NCBI GenBank assembly: GCA_031550205.1
Contig: JAVBOV010000039.1
Span: 1-53,082 of the forward strand
Origin: Alphaproteobacteria bacterium
GTDB taxonomy: Bacteria; Pseudomonadota; Alphaproteobacteria; RF32; CAG-239
DNA: 53,082 nt
Reading direction: 5' to 3'
Shown: in pieces, positions 34,307 through 39,020 of the stretch
Position numbering within the stretch: the first letter of the stretch is position 1
Layout: each line of letters begins with the position of its first letter
Made by a program: the position numbers and the translations under genes
Notes under the pieces: model-generated
Seen by the model: the letters and a program-made list of their open reading frames with translations, nothing else
What the model was told of the DNA's origin: nothing
Database searches by the model: none

Positions 34307-34648
34307 CTAATTGGTTTTGGAACCAAAGGCTCTGACGGTTGTTTTGCTGAACACGCCCAAAACCTGGGTGAATTCATAGTCGGCATAGGCCACTTTTTTC
34401 AGAGAAGCGTCTTCCATGGCTTTTTTAAGGCCGGCATCGCCGAAACCAAAGCTGATGATGGAATAACCGACGTAGGTGTCGTGCCCTTCGCCCAAGGTTT
34501 TGTTCATATCAACATTTTTGAACTCGGTGGTTAACGGAGCGCGGTAGTTGGTATAGAAAAAACCGGGAGCCGGCTGAAAAGGAGCTTCGGTGAAAGCGCA
34601 GCCGCTTAAAATTGTCAAAACCAGCAATGTTAATGATAGTTTTTTCAA
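34307..34648 (-). CDS. TRL-like family lipoprotein
   Basis: Lipobox LSGC, GDAGL..AM...L.KVAYADYE...VLGVF. Confidence 0.8.
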   Translation of the reverse strand: MKKLSLTLLVLTILSGCAFTEAPFQPAPGFFYTNYRAPLTTEFKNVDMNKTLGEGHDTYVGYSIISFGFGDAGLKKAMEDASLKKVAYADYEFTQVLGVFSKTTVRAFGSKTN

Positions 34649-34652
34649 TTAA

Positions 34653-34976
34653 TTAATCTCCGTAAACATAAACGTTGGTTTTGGTATATACGCCGAAGAA
34701 TACGTTAGTGAAGTCATAGTCAGCGTGTTTAACGGTTCTGATTTTGCCGTTTTTGGCGGCAGCTTCAACGCTGGCATCGCCCAAGGCAACCAGACCAAGC
34801 ACGCTCATAGCAGAGGATGTACCAGTTTTTGAACCTAAGTTGGTGTTTTCATATTCTAAAGACAGAGGAGCTTTGGTGTTGTTATAAACCAAGCCCATAG
34901 CCGGCTGGAACGGAGCCTTGGTGGCGCAGCCAGTCAAAGAAAGTGCGATAACAGAAGCCATTAGTATTTTTTTCAT
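34653..34976 (-). CDS. TRL-like family lipoprotein
   Basis: Lipobox LTGC, SVLGLVALGDASVEAAAKNGKI..VKHADY; paralog of adjacent gene (APFQPA). Confidence 0.85.
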   Translation of the reverse strand: MKKILMASVIALSLTGCATKAPFQPAMGLVYNNTKAPLSLEYENTNLGSKTGTSSAMSVLGLVALGDASVEAAAKNGKIRTVKHADYDFTNVFFGVYTKTNVYVYGD

Positions 34977-35152
34977 TGATAAATCCTTTAAAAAAATTAA
35001 TACAAGCCTGCTTTTTACAGGCACGACTTAATCGTAGAATTGTTTATATATTAGTCAACGTCAATTTCTGATATGCACCGGAGAATTTGATAAAACGGAT
35101 TTTTTATATTGACTTTGGATTAGAGCTATTATATAAGACCAGCAAGCTTTGG

Positions 35153-35228
35153 GCCGACTTAGCTCAGTTGGTAGAGCTACTGATTTGTAATCAGTGGGTC
35201 GGGAGTTCGAGTCTCTCAGTCGGCACCA
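35153..35228 (+). tRNA. tRNA-Thr(TGT)
   Basis: Canonical cloverleaf, CTGA-TTTGTAA-TCAG anticodon arm, encoded CCA. Confidence 0.97.
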
Positions 35229-35389
35229 TTGTCTGATGCATTGTTCTTTGAGCTTTATTTTTGTGCCGGAGAGACTATACTTTGGAATCTAGCTTCACTG
35301 CGGCTGCTTTTGCAGCCTGGTTCAGCAAGATTTTACAAAGGTTTTGCAGACAAAAATAACAATTACTTTGGTTATTTTTGCTTAGCAAC

Positions 35390-35405
35390 CTCAGTCGGCA
35401 CCATT
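35390..35405 (+). repeat. 16-bp duplication of tRNA-Thr 3' end (att-like)
   Basis: CTCAGTCGGCACCATT identical to 35215-35230. Confidence 0.85.
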
Positions 35406-35513
35406 TCAAAGCTTCCTTAGGGAAGCTTTTTTAGAATAGATTATTGTCCTCCTTCGCTGAAGCTACGGCGGACATAACAAAATCTAAAAGGCAGAGCCTT
35501 TAAGATTTTCTAA

Positions 35514-35588
35514 TGGGGTGTCGCCAAGCGGTAAGGCAGCGGTTTCTGGTACCGCCATTCCTGGGTTCGAATCCTAGCACCCCAGCCA
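35514..35588 (+). tRNA. tRNA-Gln(CTG)
   Basis: TGGGGTG/CACCCCA acceptor, GCGGT-TTCTGGT-ACCGC anticodon arm, encoded CCA. Confidence 0.97.
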
Positions 35589-35725
35589 CAACAGACAGCT
35601 TCCTTTTTGGAGGCTGTTTTTGTATGTGTGCCTTGACTTATGGCTAGTCCGTGTTGAGGTTTTGAAAAAAAGAGTTGTTTTTGCCAGCCACACGGACTAT
35701 CATTGCTTTCAAAAGGAGAAAATAA

Positions 35726-36427
35726 ATGAATATTAAAGCAATTATCTTTGACATGGATGGGGTGATGTTTGATACAGAGAAGCTATACAGAAAGGCTTTT
35801 GTTGCGATTGCTAAACGATGGGGTTGGGAAAACGAAGTAACAGAAGAGTTCATGGATAGTAATATTGGCAAAAGCAAAAAAGATATTTGCACTAGATATA
35901 AAGCACTCCTTGATGCAAAATCTATAGCAATAAATGGAAGAGAATTCGATTTTGATGAACATCTTAAGCAGGTCTATGCTTTTATTGATAATCACATAGA
36001 AACGAAGGGAACAATTGTCAAAGAAGGATTATTAGAATTGTTGAGCTTTGCAAAAGAGAATAATTTAAAAGTGGCTATAGGCACATCTGAAAATCATAAA
36101 AAAGTACAATTCTACTTAGAACATGCCAATATTCCTATGGATATTTTTGATACAATTGTTTGCGGAGATATGGTGCAACATGGTAAGCCTGCTCCAGACA
36201 TATTCATAAAGGCATGTAAAGAACTATCTGTAAAGCCAGAAGAAGCCGTTGTTTTGGAAGACTCGTTAAATGGAATTATTGCAGCACACAGAGCTGGAAC
36301 AAAACCAATAATGGTTTTAGACTGTATAAAACCCACAGACGAAATCATAAAAATATTGTTTTTTAAGCCATTGAATTCATTATTAGAAGTAGCTAAAATT
36401 ATAAAACAACAGAACGAAGCAACTTAG
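35726..36427 (+). CDS. HAD-superfamily phosphatase (beta-PGM/CbbY-like)
   Basis: FDMDGVMFDTE, GKPAPDIF, LEDSLNGI; AGGAG RBS. Confidence 0.95.
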   Translation: MNIKAIIFDMDGVMFDTEKLYRKAFVAIAKRWGWENEVTEEFMDSNIGKSKKDICTRYKALLDAKSIAINGREFDFDEHLKQVYAFIDNHIETKGTIVKEGLLELLSFAKENNLKVAIGTSENHKKVQFYLEHANIPMDIFDTIVCGDMVQHGKPAPDIFIKACKELSVKPEEAVVLEDSLNGIIAAHRAGTKPIMVLDCIKPTDEIIKILFFKPLNSLLEVAKIIKQQNEAT

Positions 36428-36453
36428 CAAATATAATTATTTAGCCCGTGCAC

Positions 36454-36640
36454 TGCAAGCTCACCCCAGCCACGTTTTACAACCGTCTTGAAAAAGGCGG
36501 TTTTTCTATATCGACCAAGGCTTTCGTTAGTTCGATGATGACTATGTTGGAAAAGATTGCTTGGGGCTGATTATCGAACAAATTTACTAAAAGCATTGGA
36601 AACTATAGCACTTTATAAGCTCAAATCAAATATGCCATTT
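36454..36640 (+). repeat. ~185-bp direct repeat, copy 1 (att core, terminator, conserved hairpin)
   Basis: Colinear with 37352-37538. Confidence 0.9.
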
Positions 36641-36731
36641 TTCATCAAATTTTGAAATAAGACATAATGAATGTTTTACTTTTTGTTCTTAATCGCTATA
36701 ATAAATAAAAATTTATAGGATATATACTGGT

Positions 36732-37235
36732 ATGATAGAAATATGGAATGTATATGATATTAACCGAAATTTGCAGAATAAAACTGTTAAAAGAGGTAGT
36801 AAAACCCTTGCCAATGACGAGTATAACTTAGCTGTAGATATTTGGATTGTAAATTCAAAAGGCGAGCATTTGATTCAAAAACGAGCTTCAAATAAAGCTG
36901 TTTATCCAAGCTATTGGGAATGTGCTGCTGGAGGAGCTGTGATTGCCGGGGAAAATTCTACTCAAGGGATGATTAGAGAACTTGAAGAAGAACTTGGTAT
37001 AATCCCTGATTTATCAAAAGCGCAGAAGGTTTTCGAGTTTATAAGAAGAGATAGTCATGTTGATGTGTGGCTTATTATAGATGACTTTGATATAGATAGT
37101 TTAAGCTTGCAACAAGAAGAAGTTAGTGCGGTAGAATGGGTTAGCACTGACAAAATATATCAAATGCTTAATGATGGTATTTTTGTACCGACTATTATGC
37201 CAGGATTTGAAAAAGTTATGGAGATTATTAAATGA
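36732..37235 (+). CDS. NUDIX hydrolase (IDI/YfcD-like)
   Basis: Nudix box GAVIAGENSTQGMIRELEEELGI, LIQKRA..K..YP..W, LQQEEV. Confidence 0.93.
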   Translation: MIEIWNVYDINRNLQNKTVKRGSKTLANDEYNLAVDIWIVNSKGEHLIQKRASNKAVYPSYWECAAGGAVIAGENSTQGMIRELEEELGIIPDLSKAQKVFEFIRRDSHVDVWLIIDDFDIDSLSLQQEEVSAVEWVSTDKIYQMLNDGIFVPTIMPGFEKVMEIIK

Positions 37236-37341
37236 GTATATTAATAAAAAGAGACCAAATTGAAAGCTTTTGTTTGGTGATGTGTTAGAAACTGAAGATG
37301 CAACACAAATCGTCGATAAATTATCTAAATTAATGTGGTAA
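37232..37341 (+). pseudogene. possible truncated gene remnant after NUDIX gene
   Basis: ATG overlapping NUDIX stop, 18-codon ORF then coding-like sequence in another frame ending TGGTAA. Confidence 0.25.
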
Positions 37342-37351
37342 GTTCGAGAAT

Positions 37352-37538
37352 TGCAAGCTATCTCCAGCCACGTTTTACAACCGTCTTGAAAAAGACGATT
37401 TTTCTATATCTGCTAAGGCTTACGTAAGTTCGATGATAGATATGTTGGAAAAGGTTGTTTGGGGTTGATTATCGAACTAATTTTGCAAAAAGCATTGGAA
37501 ACTATGACATTTTACAAGTTCGAATCAAATGAGCCTTT
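37352..37538 (+). repeat. ~185-bp direct repeat, copy 2
   Basis: Colinear with 36454-36640. Confidence 0.9.
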
Positions 37539-37706
37539 TAGATATTTGTGTTGATTCTTTGTTAATTAAACCCCTCAGAACTCTTGCCACAACAAGTTGT
37601 GGAGAGTTCTTGCTCCCCGTAAAATTACAGGGAGATAGATTGCAAGCACTCTTCAGCCAACTATAACAAACCCGCCGGTTACGGCGGGTTTATTATATTT
37701 ATGTGG

Positions 37707-39020
37707 TTATCTTTTTTTGCTTCTTTTTGAGCGGGATTGGGGGCCGAAGGTTTTGGAGTTTTTGTTGAACCTTTCTCGGTTTTTGGCTTTTTTATCCGGG
37801 GCGAACGGTTTAAACGGATTTTTGGCGCTGGTTTTGGCTTTGGGTTTTTTCTTGTTTTTATTTCCGGTTTCAAGCGTTGCAATCGGCTCGGCGCTGATTG
37901 GAGCCGGCAGGTCTAAAAGCATTGCATTATCGCGCTTATTCGGGTTTAAGAGTTTGTGAATTTCTTTCCATTTTGCACTGTCTTTGGCGGTTAAAAAGTT
38001 GATGGCAAGACCTTCAGCTCCGGCTCTGGCGGTGCGGCCGATGCGGTGGATGTAATCTTCCGGGCATTGCGGAAGGTCATAGTTTATTACGTTTTCAATG
38101 TGCGGAATATCCAGACCGCGGGCGGCGATGTCGGTTGCTACCAAAATTCTAAACTTTTGGGCTCTGAAATCAGAAATCACCCGCTCTCTTTTAGATTGTC
38201 TTAAATCTCCGTGGATTGCGCCGGCAGAAAATTTTTCTTTGTTCAGCTTAACAGCCATTCTGTCTGCTCCGTATTTGGTTTTTACAAAAACCAATAAAGA
38301 ACCAAGTCTGGTGTTAATTTGGTTTACCAAGTCTGCATATTTTGCAGAATCGGTGGTTTTGATTATCTCTTGTCTGATTTTGGGAGCAACCTCATTGCAA
38401 TTGCCGATGGCAATGCGCACCGGGTTGCTTAGATATTTTCTTGATAATGCCACAATGTTATTGGGCAGAGTTGCCGAGAACATTAAGGTTTGGCGCTTTT
38501 GGGGCAAAAACTTGGCAATTTCATTTAACTGAATGCCAAAGCCCATGTCAAGCATGCGGTCGGTTTCATCTAAAACCAAAAAATCAGTCTGCTTCAGGCT
38601 AAGGCTTTTTCTTGATAAGTGGTCGTTTATTCTGCCCGGAGTTCCGACAATTATTCTTGGGTTTTGTTTTAGTTGTTTCAGCTGTTTTAGCATGGAATCT
38701 CCGCCAATCAAAAGTGCAGAGTTGATGGCGGTTATGCTGCCAAGCATTTTGTTTGCGGCTTCTAAAACCTGAGCAGCAAGTTCACGGGTTGGCAAAAGAA
38801 CGAGGGCTGTGCTGTTTACATTGTTTAGCAGGTGGTTAATCATCGGGATTGCAAAGGAAGCAGTTTTGCCGGTTCCGGTTTGGGCGCTGCCCAAAATGTC
38901 GTGTCCTTTAAGCGCTGCCGGAATGGCCTGCTCTTGGATAGGGGTTGGTTTGGTGAAGTTCATTTGGCTCAAGGCTTCCAACATTATTGAGGGAATGCCC
39001 AGTTTTTTAAAATCTGTCAT
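37707..39020 (-). CDS. DEAD-box ATP-dependent RNA helicase
   Basis: Q motif, AQTGTGKT, PTRELA, TPGR, DETD variant of DEAD, SAT, HRIGRTAR, basic tail. Confidence 0.97.
   Translation of the reverse strand: MTDFKKLGIPSIMLEALSQMNFTKPTPIQEQAIPAALKGHDILGSAQTGTGKTASFAIPMINHLLNNVNSTALVLLPTRELAAQVLEAANKMLGSITAINSALLIGGDSMLKQLKQLKQNPRIIVGTPGRINDHLSRKSLSLKQTDFLVLDETDRMLDMGFGIQLNEIAKFLPQKRQTLMFSATLPNNIVALSRKYLSNPVRIAIGNCNEVAPKIRQEIIKTTDSAKYADLVNQINTRLGSLLVFVKTKYGADRMAVKLNKEKFSAGAIHGDLRQSKRERVISDFRAQKFRILVATDIAARGLDIPHIENVINYDLPQCPEDYIHRIGRTARAGAEGLAINFLTAKDSAKWKEIHKLLNPNKRDNAMLLDLPAPISAEPIATLETGNKNKKKPKAKTSAKNPFKPFAPDKKAKNRERFNKNSKTFGPQSRSKRSKKR

What the first reader, a model, noticed from the sequence alone, without database searches (positions are those of the whole stretch)
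35578..37659. Polarised, integrase-less cassette array growing from the tRNA-Gln 3' end
Seen: three junctions with identical geometry TGCAAGC-N6-CAGCCA (36454 TCACCC, 37352 TATCTC, 37641 ACTCTT) echo the tRNA end GCACCCCAGCCA, and similarity to the tRNA falls with distance (12-bp exact match, then 8, then 6). Each junction is followed by a terminator-like hairpin. Units are ~885 bp (HAD phosphatase), ~900 bp (NUDIX) and ~290 bp (no gene). Cargo genes are visibly AT-richer than the core. No integrase is present in the window. Known: tyrosine integrases target tRNA 3' ends and can stack tandem islands. Inference: repeated capture of minimal one-gene cassettes by a trans-acting recombinase, newest next to the tRNA, i.e. 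an integron-like system using a tRNA as the attachment site.
Basis: partly seen in the sequence, partly recalled or inferred. Interest (0 to 1): 0.8.

Follow-up and report, generated by a model that had tools for sequence, protein, structure and literature searches.

The report
Stacked recombinase-less islands behind tRNA-Gln
Three small DNA units, two with one gene each, are stacked behind a glutamine tRNA gene, each ending in the conserved end-site of a family of mobile islands that serine recombinases insert there in related bacteria, which is a known kind of genome scar rather than a new gene-capture system.

Summary
TGCAAGC-N6-CAGCCA occurs 3 times in the window (0.01 expected) and nowhere else in the 1.31-Mb genome. 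Each copy is followed by a terminator hairpin, and the units are 884, 898 and 289 bp. Matches to the tRNA end are 11, 7 and 6 nt, not 12, 8 and 6.

The motif is a family-wide site. In many related genomes (several genera, probably uncultured Alphaproteobacteria) a conserved ~45-nt arm ending ..TTGCAAGCTCACTCCAGCCA lies 0.8-16.5 kb downstream of tRNA-Gln. It bounds variable islands, mostly with defence cargo, sometimes two in tandem. One 3.1-kb unit is 95.8% identical between two genera and sits in different array positions.

All 8 close homologues of one large serine recombinase are followed 0.8-2.4 kb downstream by this site. Tyrosine-integrase islands at the same tRNA use a different end.

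Best reading: the array is tandem accretion of recombinase-less units, as in Dehalococcoides ssrA islands or staphylococcal SCC composites. This genome lacks the cognate recombinase, so the array may be fixed. The integron analogy fails its defining tests.

Earlier notes of this scan describe the same kind of array in Patescibacteria.

The parts
35153..35228 (+). tRNA-Thr(TGT). Its last 14 nt plus 2 flanking nt (35215-35230) are repeated at 35390-35405.
35231..35405 (+). About 175-bp mini-unit behind tRNA-Thr. It holds an imperfect inverted copy of the tRNA end, a conserved scaffold and a 16-nt direct copy of the tRNA end. This is a separate scar type, not part of the Gln array.
35514..35588 (+). 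tRNA-Gln(CTG). Its 3' end (..GGTTCGAATCCTAGCACCCCAGCCA) is the attachment point and the left boundary of unit 1.
35593..35619 (+). Terminator hairpin at the start of unit 1.
35639..35705 (+). Inverted-repeat hairpin (AGTCCGTG..CACGGACT) in the left-end module of unit 1.
35726..36427 (+). Cargo of unit 1: a HAD-family hydrolase of 233 aa. Its nearest relatives found are Clostridia MAGs at 57-62% identity.
36423..36472 (+). Junction 1: conserved right-end arm plus an 11-nt copy of the tRNA end. It matches the family consensus at 26 of 31 positions.
36447..36640 (+). Copy 1 of the ~190-bp repeat. It covers junction 1, the terminator at 36481-36502 and the inverted-repeat hairpin at 36524-36585, and forms the left-end module of unit 2.
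36732..37235 (+). Cargo of unit 2: a NUDIX hydrolase of 167 aa, with a promoter-like site at 36675-36702.
37321..37370 (+). Junction 2: AAGTTCGAGAATTGCAAGCTATCTCCAGCCA. It matches the family consensus at 27 of 31 positions.
37345..37539 (+). Copy 2 of the ~190-bp repeat (84-85% identical to copy 1). It covers the terminator at 37382-37397 and the hairpin at 37421-37484, and forms the left-end module of the gene-less unit 3.
37610..37659 (+). Junction 3: a decayed arm that matches the consensus at 19 of 31 positions, with a 6-nt match to the tRNA end.
37668..37691 (.). Terminator hairpin after junction 3. The convergent helicase gene ends 16 nt away.
37707..39020 (-). DEAD-box helicase, the core gene that flanks the array on the right.

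Best explanation
The interval 35589-37659 is a tandem stack of three small, recombinase-less units at the 3' end of tRNA-Gln(CTG). Each unit ends in the conserved right-end site of a family of site-specific integrative islands that target the tRNA-Gln 3' end in this bacterial family. I call that site J: an arm of about 45 nt ending ..TTGCAAGC, followed by a short copy of the tRNA end.

Inferred mechanism. A large serine recombinase encoded by the full-size members recombines the element's site with the tRNA end. The element restores the tRNA 3' end and supplies its own terminator module next to it. Its other arm, joined to the displaced tRNA tail, becomes J at the far side. Only the genuine tRNA keeps the bacterial-type left arm, so later arrivals insert next to the tRNA and push older units outward. 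This gives a polarised array whose outermost junction is the oldest and most decayed.

Units without a recombinase are either deletion derivatives or elements moved in trans or together with a neighbour (cis-mobilisable elements, accretion). In this genome the cognate recombinase clade is absent, so the array is most likely a fixed relic that delivered a HAD hydrolase gene and a NUDIX hydrolase gene.

Shown: the site, its conservation, the variable modular content, the sharing of units between genomes and the gene linkage to the recombinase. Inferred: the recombinase assignment, the crossover position, the insertion order and any present mobility.
For: 1. The motif is unique and non-random.

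2. A scan of 282 family genomes with GCAAGC-N6-CAGCCA found hits in 90, against few hits for the reversed control. About 40 hits are the specific GCAAGCTC[AT]C[TC]CCAGCCA.

3. In the 17 fetched loci that hold both a tRNA-Gln and this site, the site lies 0.8-16.5 kb downstream on the same strand. It occurs twice in G103, G121 and G182. G005 and G008 have it at +1.9 and +2.4 kb.

4. The arm left of the site is conserved for about 45 nt across 34 sites. J1, J2 and J3 match the consensus at 26, 27 and 19 of 31 positions; 33 of the 34 sites match at 24-31, with one outlier at 12.

5. The same few terminator-plus-hairpin modules follow either the tRNA or a J in different genomes. The hairpin stem shows compensatory changes in 3 of 8 pairs across 12 sequences.

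6. Units are modular. A 3,085-bp restriction-modification unit is 95.8% identical between G072, where it lies next to the tRNA, and G004, a different genus, where it lies behind a 9.4-kb unit. Homology starts 29 nt after the boundary in both. A 1.38-kb unit is 99.4% identical in G121 and G144 but has different followers.

7. All 8 large serine recombinase genes at >=73% identity to that of G020 are followed, on the same strand, by a J variant at +0.76 to +2.4 kb. Five of the 8 have tRNA-Gln 5-14 kb upstream on the same contig. Three of a 45%-identity clade (G258, G241, G260) have J at +1.1 to +2.2 kb.

8. Of 108 island ORFs of at least 90 aa, none matched Phage_integrase at E<=1e-5.

9. Tyrosine-integrase islands at the same tRNA end differently, in GATTTTGCA.-N30-plus an 18-21-nt tRNA repeat.

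10. The GTTCGA box lies 17 nt from CAGCCA in J and 12 nt in the tRNA. The same 5-bp outward shift of the zinc-ribbon-domain motif distinguishes attP from attB half-sites of serine integrases (PMC3783163, passages read).

11. Precedents exist: tandem serine-recombinase islands with recombinase-less members at ssrA in Dehalococcoides (PMC3146451, passages), and SCC and ECC elements (PMC7029136 and PMC6222049, passages).
Against: - No recombinase lies in or next to the window's array. The genome, 95.8% complete, has no match to the linked recombinase clade at E<=1e-30. Its single large serine recombinase is only 28-30% identical and lies behind the other tRNA-Gln, on contig C25.
- No excision product, empty site or strain variant was seen. 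Only one run holds the locus, as contigs, and it showed no joints.
- Canonical serine integrases do not recombine attP with attL, so repeated insertion at an already occupied tRNA needs a relaxed or two-protein system of the Ccr type. That is inferred, not shown.
- I could not find a convincing inverted partner half-site to the right of the crossover.
- Of 19 more distant large serine recombinases (41-54% identity) sampled without regard to context, only 2 clearly had a J-like site within 4 kb and 1 was ambiguous. The link is therefore specific to certain clades.
- About half of the genomes with a J have no such recombinase, comparing.
- The HAD and NUDIX units were not found in any other family genome at the DNA level, so their own mobility is undocumented.
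- The left-end modules of units 2 and 3 are 84% identical and specific to G000. Local duplication could also produce that.
Confidence: 0.72

Rival explanations
1. Active cassette platform. The one-gene units are genuine mobile cassettes that a recombinase encoded elsewhere excises as ~0.9-kb circles and inserts at the tRNA end, working as a serine-recombinase analogue of an integron.
For: Small recombinase-less units are common. None of the short units (<=4.3 kb) scanned, from 13 genomes, had a recombinase domain, and J1 and J2 are as intact as sites elsewhere. Units recur in different array positions. G000 has a large serine recombinase element behind its other tRNA-Gln, and the two tRNAs share the last 10 nt.
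Against: No circles or variants were seen. The cognate recombinase clade is absent from G000. The HAD and NUDIX units were found nowhere else. Each unit begins with a terminator and carries its own expression signals, so there is no common-promoter logic. The shared units seen are 1.4-3.1 kb and could have travelled with larger elements.
Confidence: 0.15
2. Local duplication. The array arose mainly by unequal crossing-over or segmental duplication of one tRNA-end-plus-flank segment within this lineage, with cargo genes inserted or replaced later.
For: The ~190-bp modules after J1 and J2 are 84-85% identical to each other and were not found in other genomes. Unit 3 has no gene.
Against: The J arms belong to a family-wide site linked to recombinases. 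The two cargo genes are unrelated and AT-rich, and the HAD gene is closest to Clostridia. Other genomes show the same stacking with unrelated modules.
Confidence: 0.08
3. Tyrosine-integrase scars. The junctions are attR remnants of the DUF6538-type tyrosine-integrase islands that also occupy tRNA-Gln.
For: Such integrases start 110-220 nt after the tRNA-Gln end, or 112-124 nt after a J, in most loci examined: 9 of 10, plus G012, G073 and G072.
Against: Their far ends, seen in G187, G204 and G190, have another arm (GATTTTGCA.-N30) and 18-21-nt repeats. No island bounded by a J contained such an integrase (0 of 108 ORFs). G000 has only XerC- and XerD-like tyrosine recombinases (the Xer naming rests on my reading of the sequences).
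Confidence: 0.05

Closest known systems
Dehalococcoides ssrA genomic islands (McMurdie et al. 2011, PMC3146451; passages read)
   Same: - Multiple tandem islands lie downstream of a tRNA-like gene, bounded by direct repeats of its 3' end.
- A conserved motif sits just upstream of each repeat and does not align with the gene itself.
- The integrase is a ~540-aa CcrB-like serine recombinase, with a ~200-aa small serine recombinase beside it. Here the recombinases are ~550 aa, and ~200-aa resolvases occur in G020 and G008.
- Many islands lack the integration module and were proposed to be cis-mobilisable elements stacked by accretion.
   Different: - The target is tRNA-Gln, not tmRNA.
- The host is a small-genome gut bacterium, probably an alphaproteobacterium.
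- In the main clade here the recombinase gene lies near the far (J) end and points towards it, whereas the Dehalococcoides module lies next to attL.
- The repeat is shorter (7-11 nt against 20 nt).
- Units here go down to one gene or none (0.3-0.9 kb).
- Homology between these recombinases and DsiB or CcrB was not tested.
Staphylococcal SCC/SCCmec composite islands with pseudo-SCC, and the enterococcal ECC (PMC7029136 and PMC6222049; passages read)
   Same: Large serine recombinases insert the elements at the 3' end of a conserved gene. Direct repeats mark each element. Composite stacks occur, as do members without recombinase genes. Cargo is highly variable.
   Different: The target there is the protein gene rlmH. 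The att core is unrelated. Excision and integration have been shown by experiment there and not here.
Class 1-type integrons (IntI, attI, attC cassettes); features stated from my own knowledge
   Same: A polarised array of small, mostly single-gene units bounded by a recurring site and growing from one fixed attachment point.
   Different: There is no IntI tyrosine recombinase and no attC-type imperfect palindrome with RYYYAAC/GTTRRRY cores. The units begin with terminators and have their own start signals instead of relying on a common promoter. The linked enzyme is a serine recombinase.
Tyrosine-integrase genomic islands at tRNA 3' ends
   Same: The target is a tRNA 3' end, the displaced tRNA tail forms a direct repeat, and such islands can stack.
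   Different: This kind is present in the same bacterial family at the same tRNA but with a different far-end arm and longer repeats. It accounts for the tRNA-Thr mini-unit style of scar, not for the J sites.

Membership tests
Integron | IntI-type tyrosine recombinase next to the attachment site | tested here: not met
   No PF00589 match lies on the window's contig. The genome's only two matches are 305- and 335-aa proteins on C82 and C44 that read as XerC/XerD-like.
Integron | attC sites: imperfect palindromes with inverse core and core sites | tested here: not met
   The three junctions are direct copies of a non-palindromic arm. The hairpins that follow are terminator-like. The core consensus is recalled, and I compared it only by eye.
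Integron | Promoterless cassettes read from a common promoter | tested here: not met
   A terminator-like hairpin opens every unit, and a promoter-like site lies upstream of the NUDIX gene.
Serine-recombinase tandem islands (SCC / ssrA-GI type) | Insertion at the 3' end of one conserved gene, with direct repeats of that end at each element boundary | tested here: met
   Copies of the tRNA-Gln end of 11, 7 and 6 nt at the three boundaries. The same holds in 17 or more related loci.
Serine-recombinase tandem islands (SCC / ssrA-GI type) | A large serine recombinase is encoded by the element | tested here: inconclusive
   Not met in the window's three units. Met in relatives: all 8 close homologues and 3 of a second clade lie 0.76-2.4 kb upstream of a J.
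Serine-recombinase tandem islands (SCC / ssrA-GI type) | Composite stacks that include recombinase-less members | tested here: met
   G000 has 3 units. G103, G121, G182 and G004 have 2 each. The short units scanned have no recombinase domain.
Serine-recombinase tandem islands (SCC / ssrA-GI type) | Demonstrated excision and integration by the recombinase | not testable with these tools
   Only contigs of one run were available, and they showed no joints.
Serine integrase att sites | The outer binding motif lies 5 bp further from the centre in attP-type than in attB-type half-sites | tested here: inconclusive
   The left arm fits: GTTCGA to CAGCCA is 17 nt in J and 12 nt in the tRNA (rule from PMC3783163). 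I could not identify a matching right half-site.
Cis-mobilisable element (CIME) | Flanked by att sites and lacking both recombination and transfer genes | tested here: met
   Units 1-3 carry only a HAD gene, a NUDIX gene or nothing.
Tyrosine-integrase tRNA island | Integrase gene next to the tRNA, and a far end carrying that family's arm | tested here: not met
   There is no integrase. J differs from the GATTTTGCA.-N30 far end of the family's DUF6538 islands.

The most novel reading that the evidence does not exclude
The J-bounded one-gene units are true cassettes moved in trans by large serine recombinases. The tRNA-Gln 3' end would then serve as a serine-recombinase-driven gene-capture platform, functionally parallel to an integron. 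It would be shared by distant lineages: gut Alphaproteobacteria here and, according to earlier unchecked notes of this scan, Patescibacteria. The ~200-bp 'empty' units behind a quarter of this genome's tRNA genes would be the minimal mobile form of such systems.
Probability: 0.15. Interest if true: 0.7.

Novelty: new member of a known kind. Interest (0 to 1): 0.4.

Why it matters
The result explains a conspicuous repeat pattern as the footprint of a site-specific island family. It extends the SCC and ssrA-island style of serine-recombinase accretion to a tRNA gene in small-genome gut bacteria.

It gives a precise, searchable end-site, an arm of about 45 nt followed by CCAGCCA. That site delimits defence and metabolic cargo in many uncultured genomes and would help annotate their islands.

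It also provides a candidate pair of attachment sites and recombinases that could be tested as new site-specific tools.

The array itself is probably a fixed relic, so its biological weight in this genome is limited to the two acquired hydrolase genes.

Tried and rejected
- **Sequencing runs.** One run held the locus (share 0.90), probably the source sample. Laying its contigs gave no joints, so variants could be neither shown nor excluded.
- **Rfam.** Nothing beyond the two tRNAs reached significance in 34500-38500.
The tRNA-Gln to helicase interval is not comparable. No tRNA-Gln lies near the helicase in 10 related loci, and the closest relative has another neighbour there. I therefore anchored on tRNA-Gln and on the motif instead.
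- **J3 as a gene remnant.** I considered that J3 is the remnant of the 5' end of a minus-strand NUDIX gene, because it resembles the start of a NUDIX gene near tRNA-Gln(CTG) in G019. The match is 18 nt with E=1.4 and the proteins are only 27% identical. Rejected as chance.
- **NUDIX relatives.** The pattern scan of genome contigs found none. Family genomes hold only 44%-identical homologues, away from tRNAs.
- **Cargo DNA.** A search over 282 family genomes found only the junction regions.
- **Distant recombinases.** Most more distant large serine recombinases are not followed by a J, so I did not generalise the link to all of them.
- **Right-hand half-site.** I looked for a symmetric half-site of serine-integrase type and found none convincing.
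- **Supplements.** Supplementary files of the papers could not be read. The att-site tables of PMC6222049 and the alignments of PMC3146451 might sharpen the comparison.
Full report
**What is in the sequence**

tRNA-Gln(CTG) lies at 35514-35588 and ends ..GGTTCGAATCCTAGCACCCCAGCCA. The pattern TGCAAGC-N6-CAGCCA occurs at 36454, 37352 and 37641, always on the + strand. Shuffles gave 0.01 matches on average. These are the only three matches in the 1.31-Mb, 88-contig genome.

Measured from the tRNA end, the units are 884, 898 and 289 bp long. A terminator-like hairpin follows the tRNA end and each junction.
- Unit 1 carries a HAD-family hydrolase gene.
- Unit 2 carries a NUDIX hydrolase gene.
- Unit 3 has no ORF of 50 aa or more.

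The interval has 27-37% GC, against 42-50% in the flanking core genes.

The exact matches to the tRNA tail are 11, 7 and 6 nt. And junctions 1 and 2 each open a ~190-bp direct repeat (36447-36640 and 37345-37539, 84-85% identical), of which junction 3 keeps about 65 nt. That repeat holds the terminator and, about 60 nt further on, an inverted-repeat hairpin. A third copy of the hairpin follows the tRNA itself, at 35639-35705.

**The motif is a family-wide site**

The helicase to the right of the array is not next to a tRNA-Gln in any of 10 related loci.

In 282 genomes of the same family, GCAAGC-N6-CAGCCA hit 90 genomes, with far fewer hits for the reversed control. About 40 hits were the single sequence GCAAGCTC[AT]C[TC]CCAGCCA. 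I fetched 40 of these places. In the 17 that also held a tRNA-Gln, the site lay 0.8-16.5 kb downstream on the same strand. Two sites occurred in tandem in G103, G121 and G182. G005 and G008 have a site at +1.9 and +2.4 kb.

The conserved sequence extends about 45 nt to the left of the tRNA-like tail (..AATCAAAATTTTAGCTCGAGAATTGCAAGCTCACTCCAGCCA). Over the last 31 nt, 33 of 34 sites from other genomes match the consensus at 24-31 positions, with one outlier at 12. The window's junctions match at 26, 27 and 19. I call this site J.

What follows CAGCCA, whether at the tRNA or at a J, is one of a few interchangeable modules made of a terminator plus the inverted-repeat hairpin. The hairpin stem keeps pairing through changes on both sides in 3 of 8 pairs over 12 sequences.

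**Units are modular and move between genomes**

- A 3,085-bp stretch carrying a restriction-modification specificity gene and methylase gene is 95.8% identical between G072 and G004, which the tool places in different genera. In G072 it starts 29 nt after the tRNA end. In G004 it starts 29 nt after an internal J variant, behind a 9.4-kb unit.
- A 1.38-kb unit is 99.4% identical in G121 and G144, but different sequences follow it.
- Island cargo in 17 loci (108 ORFs of at least 90 aa) is mostly defence-type: restriction-modification systems, AbiTii, a reverse transcriptase, toxin-antitoxin and WYL proteins. There are also a GNAT and an acyltransferase.

**Which recombinase**

None of the 108 ORFs matched Phage_integrase at E<=1e-5. 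Large serine recombinases were present in G004, G020 and G258.

I searched the family with the G020 enzyme. All 8 genes at 73% identity or more (G020, G004, G011, G013, G050, G060, G073, G111) are followed on the same strand by a J or a J variant (for example GCGAATTCACTCCAGCCA) at +0.76 to +2.4 kb. Three genes of a 45%-identity clade (G258, G241, G260) have a J at +1.1 to +2.2 kb.

The link is specific to those clades. Of 19 more distant large serine recombinases sampled without regard to context, 2 clearly had a J-like site within 4 kb and 1 was ambiguous.

Tyrosine integrases with a DUF6538 N-terminus also sit directly after tRNA-Gln or after a J. Their islands end in a different arm, however: GATTTTGCA.-about 30 nt-then an 18-21-nt tRNA repeat, seen in G187, G204 and G190. 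J therefore belongs to the serine-recombinase elements and not to these islands.

One structural detail fits that assignment. The T-loop-like GTTCGA box is 17 nt from CAGCCA in J and 12 nt in the tRNA. A 5-bp outward shift of the outer binding motif is what distinguishes attP from attB half-sites of serine integrases (PMC3783163, passages). I could not find the matching right half-site, so this remains a hint.

**This genome**

G000 has two tyrosine recombinases that read as XerC/XerD-like and one large serine recombinase. The serine recombinase lies 0.9-2.6 kb downstream of the other tRNA-Gln(TTG), on contig C25, and is only 28-30% identical to the J-linked clade. No match to that clade was found at E<=1e-30.

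The HAD gene's nearest relatives found are Clostridia MAGs at 57-62% identity. The NUDIX gene has only 44%-identical homologues in the family, and they lie elsewhere. Neither unit occurs in the other 281 genomes at the DNA level.

The one public run that holds the locus gave contigs that agree with the window and showed no alternative joints.

The array is therefore best read as a stack of recombinase-less units, either relics or cis-mobilisable elements. J3 is the oldest and most decayed. Whether the C25 enzyme can still act on the array is open.

**Comparison with what is known**

The closest precedent I read is the set of ssrA islands of Dehalococcoides. These are tandem islands behind the tmRNA gene, bounded by 20-bp repeats of its 3' end, with a conserved motif just upstream of each repeat. 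The integrase is a ~540-aa CcrB-like serine recombinase accompanied by a ~200-aa one, and 15 islands without an integration module were interpreted as cis-mobilisable elements stacked by accretion (PMC3146451, passages).

SCC composite islands with pseudo-SCC members and the enterococcal ECC are the same kind of element at rlmH (PMC7029136 and PMC6222049, passages).

A search for 'serine recombinase' together with 'tRNA-Gln' gave 4 papers. None concerns such an array, judging by title or abstract only.

Earlier notes of this scan (unchecked AI notes on other genomes) describe stacked serine-recombinase elements and recombinase-less cassettes at tRNA-Gln in Patescibacteria. The scan has thus met this kind of array before on other DNA. 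I reached my reading before seeing those notes.

The host here is probably an uncultured alphaproteobacterium from an invertebrate gut. The helicase's best named matches are Proteobacteria and Alphaproteobacteria MAGs.

**Verdict**

It is wrong about the enzyme class and the integron analogy. The array is a new member of a known kind and of moderate interest.

The most notable by-product is the finding that 12 of this genome's 34 tRNA genes carry downstream copies of their own 3' ends.

Noticed in passing
Whole genome G000; in the window 35215-35405: Of 34 tRNA genes, 12 have an exact copy of their last 11 nt within 6 kb downstream. Nine of these lie at +169 to +225 nt (Gly-TCC, Lys-TTT, Thr-CGT, Arg-ACG, Thr-TGT, Glu-CTC, Asp-GTC, Arg-TCT, Arg-CCT). 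The repeats are 15-39 nt long and reach 0-20 nt beyond the tRNA end. That is a very high density of tRNA-end scars for a 1.3-Mb genome.
   Followed up: partly
window 35231-35405, and G000 contigs C11, C49, C68: Each ~200-nt unit behind these tRNAs has the same layout. A terminator comes first, then an imperfect inverted copy of the tRNA 3' end, which forms a long palindrome with the tRNA tail. Next comes a conserved scaffold (..TTTTGCAGA, a covarying hairpin, CTTAGCAAG), then the direct copy of the tRNA end. The same scaffold serves four different tRNAs and occurs near tRNA-Arg, Gly, His, Phe and Thr in relatives. It resembles the far-end arm of DUF6538 tyrosine-integrase islands. These may be miniature, arms-only elements.
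   Followed up: partly
G000 contig C25, downstream of tRNA-Gln(TTG): A 559-aa large serine recombinase converges on the second tRNA-Gln gene, with an AT-rich 184-aa ORF between them. A repeated TCCAGTAACGCTTGCAAT..GGAAGTCAACTC box precedes two minus-strand genes. A ParB-like ORF lies at the contig end.
   Followed up: partly
G223 (L270) and G200 (L271): Tyrosine-integrase islands of 15-17 kb are flanked by two complete tRNA-Gln(TTG) genes rather than by a gene and a fragment.
   Followed up: no
G241, G260, G108, G080, G066 (places listed): Two serine-recombinase genes lie side by side: a ~380-residue match next to a ~530-aa gene. The arrangement recalls ccrA-ccrB pairs.
   Followed up: no
G018 (L181), G023 (L182), G098 (L183): A further large serine recombinase clade (about 30% identical to the G020 enzyme) converges on the tRNA-Gln 3' end, with its match reaching into the tRNA. 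In G098 it converges on a junction-like GCAAGCTCTCGCCAGCCA instead.
   Followed up: no
window 35514-35588; loci L026-L045 and L143: The window's tRNA-Gln has anticodon CTG. Among 20 tRNA-Gln loci fetched from 19 relatives only one (G019) was CTG and the rest were TTG. G173 also has a CTG gene, followed by a 0.79-kb GNAT unit and a J.
   Followed up: partly
window 36536-36571 and 37434-37469: Both copies of the ~190-bp repeat keep a tiny ORF (MMTMLEKIAWG* and MIDMLEKVVWG*) that overlaps the inverted-repeat hairpin. It may be meaningless.
   Followed up: no
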